From Eledone cirrhosa (lineage: Eukaryota), in NCBI GenBank assembly GCA_964016885.1, contig OZ024763.1, positions 4,526,001 through 4,590,000 of the forward strand: a stretch of DNA of 64,000 nt. The letters are read 5' to 3'. This document shows positions 46,419-52,960 of this stretch, in pieces (position 1 is the stretch's first letter; each line of letters begins with the position of its first letter). A model generated the notes under the pieces. It had not been told where the DNA came from. It saw only the letters and a list, made by a program, of their open reading frames with translations, and did no database searches. The translations under genes were made by a program, and so were the position numbers.

Positions 46419-46465
<47 letters not shown>

Positions 46466-46515
46466 TAAACAAATAATGAATAAACAATTCCTTATATTAA
46501 ACAAAAAAAGTTCAT

Positions 46516-46659
46516 TATTTAACGATCGTTTCTAGGATATATATGTGTTAGAGTTGGCATGCATATTCAACAGATCTATGTACAAAATTATACAAAATTA
46601 TACAAACTATCAAGATTAAATATATATACCAACACATATATACGCCGTCTTCAGAAATA
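46516..46659 (-). ncRNA. Type I hammerhead ribozyme with very long stem/loop II
   Basis: Minus strand: TATTT-CTGAAGA-cggcgTATATATGTGTTGG...CTAACACATATATAtccta-GAAA-CGATCG-TT-AAATA. Confidence 0.68.
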
Positions 46660-47058
46660 TCCTAGAAACGATCGTTAAATAATGAACTTTTTTTGTTTAA
46701 TATAAGGAATTGTTTATTCATTATTTGTTTAATATTTTATCTTGACTCTGTATACCGTTTATCTTTCACCGAAAGTGATTTTTCATTACATTTCTTCTTT
46801 CCATGATATCCGGAATACATTGAGTTCTTCATACGGATTGGACACTACCGTAAACTCTTGGTAGATTTATCTACATATATATATATATATATATATATCA
46901 CTGATGAAGGACTATTTTTTTTCATATGTAACCCATGTGCAACCACGCAGCACTCAATTCTTCTATATATATTTTTTTATCCTACATTGAAACGTTCGTA
47001 GAGTAAAATAATGTTGTAAATATAGGATATATATTGGAAAACCCTAATATAACCTAAC

Positions 47059-47097
<39 letters not shown>

Positions 47098-47103
<6 letters not shown>

Positions 47104-47433
47104 ATGATATTAATAAATGGAAACTATATTTATAAAACCATATTTATTCTATTTTATATATTTCAAGGGTACCAAAGTACGCTCTCATCAGATAAAATAC
47201 AAAGTTTGTTTTATAAATATTGACATATCCAGGAATGAGACCTCAACGGTTCAAGTTTTACCTGGATTGGTAAAACTTGAACCGTTAAGGTCTCATTCCT
47301 GGATATGTCAATATTTATAAAACAAACTTTGTATCTTATCTGATGAGAGCGTACTTTGGTACCCTTGAAATATATAAAATAGAATAAATATGGTTTTATA
47401 AATATAGTTTCCATTTATTAATATCATTGATAT
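47098..47433. mobile_element. Near-perfect palindrome (~165-bp arms, 6-nt loop) of a PLE terminal repeat, one HHR-like core per arm
   Basis: About 2 mismatches between the arms. CTGATGA-GAGCGTACTTTGGTACCCTT-GAAA-TATATA is at 47340 (+) and mirrored at 47150-47199 (-). Stem III is shortened, so it may be inactive. Confidence 0.9.
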
Positions 47434-47470
47434 TATACTCCAGCGTATATTTTAATGTGTTGCCTGATCA

Positions 47471-47504
<34 letters not shown>

Positions 47505-47509
<5 letters not shown>

Positions 47510-47685
47510 TCGGAACCCCGACAGCTGAACTCCTTCCGTTTCAACAGCTAGATCCGAACTAAATCTGTTCGGATCTAGCTGTTGAAACTGCAGGAACTCA
47601 GCCGCCGGGGTCCCGAATTTTTCATATTACCCACTATACTACCCTAAGTAATGGTCTAACTGGTCTTTACCGCTTCCATTGTGAT
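47505..47685 (+). mobile_element. Diverged family X relative with fold-back
   Basis: Palindrome 47505-47621 (TTTCAACAGCTAGATCCGAAC-TAAATCT-GTTCGGATCTAGCTGTTGAAA) followed by ATTACCCACTATACTACCCTAAGTA. Confidence 0.75.
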
Positions 47686-52523: not shown

Positions 52524-52960
52524 AACCAGTAAGACCCCGACGGCTGAGCTCAAGCCGTTTCGACGGCTAATTCTGGACTAAATGAAAATTTATCCTGGTA
52601 TTTAAATAGCCGAGCTTCTCAAGGGGTAATTCCATATATGGTCAAAGTGATTGTCAAAAGTTAGTAGTAATTCTGTGATTGTAAATTAGTAGGAGAGATG
52701 GTGGCTAAACCTGCCAGTAGGAGAAAAAGTAGAGGGGGTGGAGTAGACCCAATCATGCGTTGGTAGTGCCAACATGGGCATGAGGTCAAAGAAGATACTG
52801 GGGAGGGGAGGGGGAGGAAGTCGAAACGGTAGGTAGAACAATGAGGGGTAAAAATATATATATGAAAGAAAAAATACTGAGAGTGATGAAAAGCGAATAA
52901 GTGTAAAGAAAAAAGAGTATAAAAGCAAGTTCTACGACCTAAGTCTCTGGCTATTGTTAG
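52520..52960 (-). mobile_element. Family X upstream portion with full but degenerate HHR (52534-52627)
   Basis: Minus strand: ACCCC-TTGAGAA-gctCGGCTA...TAGCCGtc-GAAA-CGGCTTGAGCTCAGCCG-TC-GGGGT. The core deviates from CUGANGA at two positions; a pyrimidine-rich tract lies upstream. Confidence 0.6.

What the first reader, a model, noticed from the sequence alone, without database searches (positions are those of the whole stretch)
47098..47433. Near-perfect 336-bp palindrome links the non-coding HHR elements to the coding PLE
Seen: both strands encode the same HHR-like core. The arm sequence AAATGGAAACTATATTTATAAAACCATATTTATT is identical to about 60320-60353 beside the PLE's HHR, with further similarity (GTTTTATAAATA), yet stem II is entirely different. 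This is direct in-window evidence that these short elements are terminal repeats of relatives of the 60.2-62.2 kb PLE. Near-identical arms imply a recent hairpin-primed origin.
Basis: partly seen in the sequence, partly recalled or inferred. Interest (0 to 1): 0.75.

Follow-up and report, generated by a model that had tools for sequence, protein, structure and literature searches.

The report
Twin-copied stub of a Penelope retroelement
This DNA hairpin is real but is a common, known kind of footprint: two short head-to-head copies of the end of an abundant Penelope-like jumping gene, likely copied from two start points back to the likely beginning of the element's RNA, with a self-cutting RNA motif that is predicted to be dead here.

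Summary
The palindrome is real: 165-nt arms, 2 mismatches. It is a short insertion of a high-copy Hydra-clade Penelope-like element (family B), made of two 5'-truncated 3' ends joined head to head at a (TA)n run. The 60216-60560 stretch is family A's own inverted 3' end. Head-to-head copies with a one-sided tail are in print. The genome sample adds detail. 57 of 59 classifiable inverted pairs carry one short and one long 3' end, about 92 nt apart. 5' ends stop sharply at a homologous ACTA(T/C)CC motif in both families, likely the transcription start. Simple fold-back self-priming fails, because each arm has bases the other lacks. Both arms share a private 6-nt deletion and a core U16.1-to-A change, so the ribozyme is predicted dead and arm identity does not date the insertion. 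No read spans the locus. The scan noted the same layout before in this and other genomes. Verdict: ordinary, with a useful mechanistic footnote.

The parts
47061..47097 (.). (TA)n run, the insertion target at the left end
   Evidence: sequence; family 3' ends run into (TA)n in most copies
47098..47267 (-). Left arm: inverted, 5'-truncated family B 3' end with the SHORT end; reaches 76 nt upstream of the hammerhead C3
47145..47199 (-). Type I minimal hammerhead motif of the left arm (C3 at 47191); 6-nt loop II deletion; U16.1 changed to A at 47154
47263..47268 (.). Head-to-head junction: 5 nt of element sequence found only in the left arm, plus 1 extra or changed base
47269..47443 (+). Right arm: 5'-truncated family B 3' end that continues past the short end, so it was begun at the LONG end; starts 71 nt upstream of C3
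47269..47307 (+). Remainder of the stem-loop that begins at the ACTATCC 5' cliff (likely 5' end of the RNA)
47332..47386 (+). Type I minimal hammerhead motif of the right arm (C3 at 47340); same 6-nt deletion; U16.1 changed to A at 47377; stem I mismatch at 47335
47434..47443 (+). First 10 nt of the family's tail of about 92 nt; the rest of the tail is missing and was not found in the window
60216..60560 (-). Inverted, 5'-truncated 3' end of family A with the long end and its hammerhead motif (C3 at 60407); sister sequence of the palindrome arm
60565..62150 (+). 5'-truncated, frameshifted family A RT-endonuclease frame (residues 208-737 of 741), Hydra-clade motifs; own 3'UTR absent

Best explanation
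The palindrome is two 5'-truncated 3' ends of an abundant Hydra-clade Penelope-like element joined head to head at a (TA)n run, likely made when the element's enzyme primed two cDNAs from the two target ends, one at each of two start sites on the RNA, and both likely ran back to near the RNA's 5' end. Shown: family membership and an own coding family; two discrete 3' ends about 92 nt apart; one short plus one long end per inverted pair; a sharp 5' cliff at a homologous motif in two families; changed core bases in both arms. Inferred: twin priming (from the pair rule plus published in vitro work on another clade); that the cliff is the transcription start (about 0.6); joining of the two cDNA ends by end repair or microhomology; later loss of most of the tail. 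Predicted: the ribozymes are inactive and the copy is dead.
For: Copy number: 1345 candidates for the arm and 792 exact copies of the 36-nt hammerhead stretch. Other head-to-head copies with different flanks and junctions. Own reading frame. 3' ends: family B 50 short, 32 long, 5 other, 1 unscored of 88 loci; family A 35 short, 30 long, 1 other of 66. Inverted pairs: B 33 short+long, 2 long+long, 0 short+short, 11 unclassifiable of 46; A 24, 0, 0 and 10 unclassifiable of 34. 8 of 43 partner arms are long-end arms that stop inside the tail, and two family A long arms stop at +100, the short start site, as expected if two enzymes share one RNA. 5' cliff: B 54 of 88 ends in the 26 nt up to the A of ACTATCC against 1 in the next 26 nt (p 3e-15); A 13 of 70 against 1 at ACTACC (p 0.002). 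Hammerhead stem II has an equally stable cDNA hairpin (-7.4 against -7.6 kcal/mol) yet stops 1 of 31 partner arms, against 22 of 23 at the cliff. In family A the long end lies about 48 nt before the start codon in tandem copies, matching internal initiation at the repeat-frame junction (PMC11167929, parts 1-2 read).
Against: No RNA data, so the transcription start is untested. The cliff coincides with the 5' base of a stem-loop in both families, and family B, with the stronger hairpin, has the stronger cliff. Among family A copies that carry the frame, 3 of about 14 upstream repeats reaching the zone stop there (my count), the same rate as the general sample, which a hairpin-stall model explains without a promoter. 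Smaller clusters of ends lie at other paired regions (-3 to -12 and -44). One copy in the score-ranked set (L024) appears to have two short ends. The shared private deletion has no donor copy in this assembly, which twin priming alone does not explain. No read spans the locus.
Confidence: 0.85

Rival explanations
1. Fold-back self-priming (first reader; Arkhipova 2013): one cDNA snaps back on itself and copies itself, making the second arm.
For: The window junction has fold-back geometry (8-bp stem, 6-nt loop). Both arms share two variants that are private among the 162 arms sampled, and the deletion occurs only here in the genome. PMC3846280 (passages read) proposes self-priming for head-to-head junctions.
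Against: If the left arm was first, it cannot supply the 10-nt tail of the right arm. If the right arm was first, it cannot supply the 5 extra centre bases of the left arm. The short arm reaches further 5' in 23 of 33 (B) and 17 of 24 (A) pairs.
Confidence: 0.07
2. Same twin-primed insertion, but the 5' cliff is a stop caused by the RNA stem-loop or by snap-back of the new cDNA, not the start of the RNA.
For: The strongest 55-nt RNA hairpin of family B's last 600+ nt begins at the cliff. The commonest end (-77, 12 loci) is the base of the perfect stem. Family A has a weaker hairpin and a weaker cliff (13 of 61 at risk).
Against: An equally stable cDNA hairpin (stem II) stops almost nothing. 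Ends do not overshoot the motif: none between -81 and -104 in B, none between -89 and -100 in A. The motif resembles the initiator-like TCACT noted in another Penelope repeat (PMC3846280).
Confidence: 0.3
3. The palindrome moves as a unit (a MITE-like or retrozyme-like non-autonomous element).
For: Most family B copies are short: 71 of 88 end at or after -80. Some junctions recur at separate loci (L010, L024, L025).
Against: Junctions and arm lengths differ widely between loci, either arm may carry the tail, and many copies have one arm only. No tandem direct repeats of a unit as retrozymes have. This copy's deletion variant has no second locus.
Confidence: 0.05
4. Read fold-back or assembly artefact.
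For: No contig or read spans the centre or joins an arm to its flank.
Against: The arms differ at 2 sites, the symmetry ends exactly at the family's short end, the right arm carries the family tail, flanks are unrelated, and the layout recurs across the genome with a fixed short/long rule.
Confidence: 0.03

Closest known systems
Hydra clade of C-terminal EN+ Penelope-like elements (Craig et al. 2021, PMC8557442; includes Hydra-1_Obim of Octopus bimaculoides)
   Same: RW(R/K), DKT (family A), YRDD, CxCx5C linker, CxxC and CxH motifs, (TA)n targets, sense hammerhead near the 3' end.
   Different: Elements here are about 3.7 kb with a 3'UTR of 1.2-1.5 kb (published ones generally under 3 kb); tail about 92 nt; hammerhead has only a 2-bp stem III, where the listed Hydra motifs have longer ones.
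Inverted 5'-truncated copy plus one-sided tail in EN+ Penelope-like insertions (PMC8557442 section 6; Adineta vaga Pen2a, PMC3846280)
   Same: Head-to-head inverted terminal copy, tail at one end only, initiator-like TCACT and a palindrome near the 5' end of the repeat.
   Different: Here the whole insertion is only the two terminal pieces; the tail is 92 nt rather than 30-40; the one-short/one-long rule and the 5' cliff are counted; self-priming is not supported.
Poseidon of Anolis carolinensis, internal initiation of reverse transcription (PMC11167929)
   Same: Two start sites on the RNA define the tail; both target strands are extended; AT-rich target; predicted dimer.
   Different: Other clade; there the start sites lie inside the frame, here upstream of the start codon; the parts read do not describe 5' run-off products or palindromic stubs.
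Non-LTR retrozymes (PMC7761336; bioRxiv 10.64898/2026.07.22.740005)
   Same: Short non-coding type I hammerhead sequence derived from a Penelope terminal repeat.
   Different: Retrozymes are tandem direct repeats with two same-strand ribozymes; this is an inverted pair with broken cores.

Membership tests
Hydra-clade PLE | Single frame, RT followed by C-terminal GIY-YIG-type endonuclease | tested here: met
   741-aa open frame in family A; colinear broken frame in family B L266. Pfam gave no hit for the two window fragments; homologues carry PF26215 and one PF00078.
Hydra-clade PLE | RWK motif in place of GxKF/Y | tested here: met
   RIRWRAF in A, KLRWRAF in B (RWR variant); Hydra-1_Obim has RMRWKAF.
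Hydra-clade PLE | DKG changed to DKT | tested here: met
   SDKTNN in A; the one family B copy read has SDETNN.
Hydra-clade PLE | CxCx5C linker; CxxC and CxH motifs in the endonuclease | tested here: met
   CNCRDRSKC, CDLC, CRH in A; CNCRIESNC, CHLC, CRH in B.
Hydra-clade PLE | Insertion into (TA)n and hammerhead motif in the terminal repeat | tested here: met
Hydra-clade PLE | Placement in the clade by phylogeny | not tested
   No tree built; only by-eye comparison with supplement sequences.
EN+ PLE inverted insertion unit | Head-to-head inverted 5'-truncated copy, tail at one end only | tested here: met
   window arms; 57 of 59 classifiable pairs
EN+ PLE inverted insertion unit | Target-site duplication | tested here: inconclusive
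   Left flank is (TA)n; right end is cut off inside the tail, so no duplication can be read.
Active type I hammerhead ribozyme | Intact core with U16.1 before the cleavage base | tested here: not met
   A in both arms, where 64 of 89 sampled copies have the full majority 22-mer with T and nearly all raw reads show T at 47377. The need for U16.1 is recalled, not from a call.
Active type I hammerhead ribozyme | Self-cleavage | not testable with these tools
   Needs an in vitro assay; read-through RNA is predicted to form one long hairpin instead.
Non-LTR retrozyme | At least two tandem direct units each with a complete hammerhead | tested here: not met
   Arms are inverted; definition.

The most novel reading that the evidence does not exclude
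Palindromic stubs like this are the 'strong-stop' products of Penelope replication. Two enzyme copies on one promoter-started RNA initiate 92 nt apart at the repeat-frame junction and run off the capped 5' end. The genome therefore records both start sites and the transcription start of each family, and most copies of a family can be such by-products.
Probability: 0.5. Interest if true: 0.5.

Novelty: new member of a known kind. Interest (0 to 1): 0.3.

Why it matters
How Penelope-like elements, the closest relatives of telomerase, make their inverted ends and one-sided tails is still open. The locus itself is dead debris. The counts across copies (57 of 59 pairs with one short and one long end; a hard 5' edge at the same motif in two families) argue for two-site priming over self-priming in a clade without biochemistry. 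They give exact coordinates for a 5' RACE and an in vitro test. They also warn that near-identical arms do not date such palindromes.

Tried and rejected
Rfam: no hammerhead among the 150 rows shown; the hits are simple-repeat noise. Pfam on the two window frame fragments: no family. A short AT-rich DNA query returned nothing because common words are skipped; an exact pattern was used instead. Splice acceptor as cause of the cliff: family B has ...TATCCAG|G, but ends lie upstream of the AG and family A has no AG there; rejected. Naiad identity and an antisense hammerhead in the 5'UTR: rejected, the endonuclease is C-terminal and the hammerhead is sense in full copies. Gene conversion against shared donor for the private variants: 9 of 41 tight pairs against 2 of 22 spaced pairs carry shared private variants, p 0.30, inconclusive. 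Sequencing runs: no RNA holder listed; contigs and RAD reads cover family sequence only, none spans the centre or a flank. Place look-up of earlier findings was empty. Literature: three full-text searches listed no paper on a 5' cliff or a counted short/long rule; subscription papers are not covered and bioRxiv supplements are closed, so this is not proof of absence.

Full report
Observation. The palindrome is as described: arms 47098-47262 and 47269-47433, two mismatched pairs, 6 nt between them, symmetry ending exactly there. As RNA it folds into one hairpin far beyond chance (z -52.9). The 34-nt string is shared with 60320-60353, and the right arm aligns with the reverse complement of 60216-60560 at 126 of 195 columns. 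Hammerhead-like cores lie at 47340 (+), 47191 (-) and 60407 (-). Stem II is diverged but alignable.

What the arm is. The window lies in a 3.0-Gb animal genome. The arm had 1345 candidates, 40 scored, and an exact 36-nt stretch of the family hammerhead occurs 792 times, control 0. Several hits are head-to-head pairs with other flanks. Copies that extend upstream lead through about 1.2 kb of non-coding sequence into an RT-endonuclease frame in the same sense as the hammerhead. L266 holds the whole frame, broken, preceded by a tail piece and followed by the hammerhead region; it is 60-62% identical in protein to the 60 kb element over most of its length and 49% at the C-terminal end. So the arm is the 3' end of family B, a coding sister family.

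The 60 kb element (family A) is very abundant: 24,726 candidates, 150 scored, all 97-100% identical. A complete copy has a 741-residue frame, a 3'UTR of about 1.4 kb and a sense hammerhead near its 3' end. The window copy is 5'-truncated, frameshifted, lacks its 3'UTR, and carries an inverted copy of its own 3' end at 60216-60560. Motifs RWR, DKT, YRDD, CxCx5C, CxxC and CxH and the (TA)n targets match the Hydra clade as defined in PMC8557442 section 11. That paper's supplement lists an octopus member, Hydra-1_Obim, with similar motifs by eye. Named protein relatives come from Argonauta. No tree was built.

Two 3' ends. I took the first listed exact matches of a hammerhead pattern as a sample not ranked by length: 90 loci fetched of 100 listed for B, two dropped as partner arms, 88 used; 70 for A, 66 after dropping four partner loci for the pair count. 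Both families end either at about +99 from the hammerhead C3 (short) or at about +191 (long), each followed by (TA)n: B 50 short, 32 long, 5 other, 1 unscored; A 35, 30, 1. Among loci with an adjacent inverted piece, B has 33 short+long, 2 long+long, 0 short+short and 11 unclassifiable of 46; A has 24, 0, 0 and 10 of 34. One copy in the score-ranked set (L024) looks short+short. The window fits the rule: the left arm has the short end against (TA)n, and the right arm continues 10 nt into the tail before it is cut off; the rest of the tail is not in the window.

A 5' cliff. In B, 54 of 88 5' ends lie in the 26 nt up to the A of ACTATCC (79 nt before C3) and 1 lies in the next 26 nt (p 3e-15). 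In A, 13 of 70 against 1 at the homologous ACTACC, 88 nt before C3 (p 0.002). The window arms end at -71 and -76. A splice acceptor is excluded because A has no AG there. A stem-loop starts at the cliff in both families, stronger in B, so a structural stop is a real rival. Against it, hammerhead stem II makes an equally stable cDNA hairpin but stops 1 of 31 partner arms, while the cliff zone stops 22 of 23, and ends do not overshoot. For it, the commonest end is the base of the stem, smaller clusters lie at other paired regions, and family A copies with a frame stop there at about the general rate (3 of about 14, my count). The motif resembles the initiator-like TCACT noted in an Adineta Penelope repeat, and Penelope transcripts start inside the upstream repeat (PMC2377424). 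I put the transcription start at about 0.6.

Mechanism. PMC11167929 showed in vitro, for another clade, that both target strands are cut and extended, that copying starts at two sites inside the RNA near the repeat-frame junction, and that the tail is the stretch between them. In family A the long end lies about 48 nt before the start codon in tandem copies. An RNA started in the upstream repeat and primed at that junction would give two short cDNAs limited by the RNA's 5' end; joined head to head they give this palindrome. Long arms that stop inside the tail (8 of 43 partner arms) or at +100 (two family A loci) suggest two enzymes on one RNA. These steps are inferred.

Fold-back. The self-priming idea is in print and the window junction has that geometry. 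But the left arm has 5 centre bases that the right lacks, and the right has 10 tail bases that the left lacks. Across the sample the short arm reaches further 5' in 40 of 57 pairs, the long arm in 13, equal in 4. A single cDNA copying itself cannot give this.

Shared private changes. Both arms carry a 6-nt deletion in loop II found nowhere else in the genome (1 forward, 1 reverse match) and a T-to-A change at U16.1; raw reads of the family show T there. This means either one variant donor RNA that is absent from this assembly, or later conversion between arms. The test was inconclusive (9 of 41 tight against 2 of 22 spaced pairs, p 0.30). Two differences between arms is within the usual range of tight pairs (0-18, mostly 2-5), so 'recent' is not shown. 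With U16.1 lost (its role is recalled) and the arms pairing with each other, the ribozymes are predicted dead. The family majority has the minimal type I form with a very short stem III described for Penelope elements.

Artefact. No contig or read spans the locus. Two arm differences, ends that match the family's two natural ends, unrelated flanks and genome-wide recurrence make an artefact unlikely.

Papers seen: PMC8557442 passages, section 11 and supplement rows; PMC11167929 parts 1-2 of 4; PMC3846280, PMC2377424 and PMC7761336 passages; bioRxiv 10.64898/2026.07.22.740005 part 1 of 5. Three searches listed nothing on a counted short/long rule or a 5' cliff. Earlier scan notes, seen after these analyses, report the same layout in this and other genomes, and one proposes an RNA start for another family; I did not check their loci.

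Verdict. Real, explained, a new member of a known kind. Interest 0.3; the run-off reading would merit 0.5 if confirmed.

Noticed in passing
window 46457-46875: A second inverted unit between (TA)n runs: 89-nt arms (46457-46545, 46652-46740) with an extension of about 135 nt on one side; the same extension occurs reversed in L066. Looks like a third family with the same short/long layout.
   Followed up: partly
window 5459 and 29939 (+): Other hammerhead-like cores followed within about 100 nt by (TA)n; no BLAST similarity to family A or B; probably 3' ends of other families.
   Followed up: partly
window 47502-47624: Small inverted-repeat element (58-nt arms, 86%) after the (TG)n run, with a partial relative at 52534-52583; MITE-like.
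   Followed up: no
L102/L103 and L105/L106: Palindromes with no difference between arms over about 155 nt but 8-10 shared variants, 1-3 of them private; candidates for conversion between arms.
   Followed up: partly
L028 1-1120: Tandem array of about 22 copies of a 51-nt inverted piece of the family B hammerhead.
   Followed up: no
L284/L285: Tandem units of about 450 nt made of the family A 3' end plus the first 195 nt of the frame; retrozyme-like arrangement.
   Followed up: no
window 61380-61480; L266 frame: Asparagine-rich stretches between RT and endonuclease in both families, like those described in Adineta Penelopes.
   Followed up: no
family B, about 70 nt upstream of the cliff (L012, L020, L083): Octamer-like ATTTGCAT; family A has TATATAA about 23 nt upstream of its cliff. 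Possible promoter elements; labels recalled.
   Followed up: no
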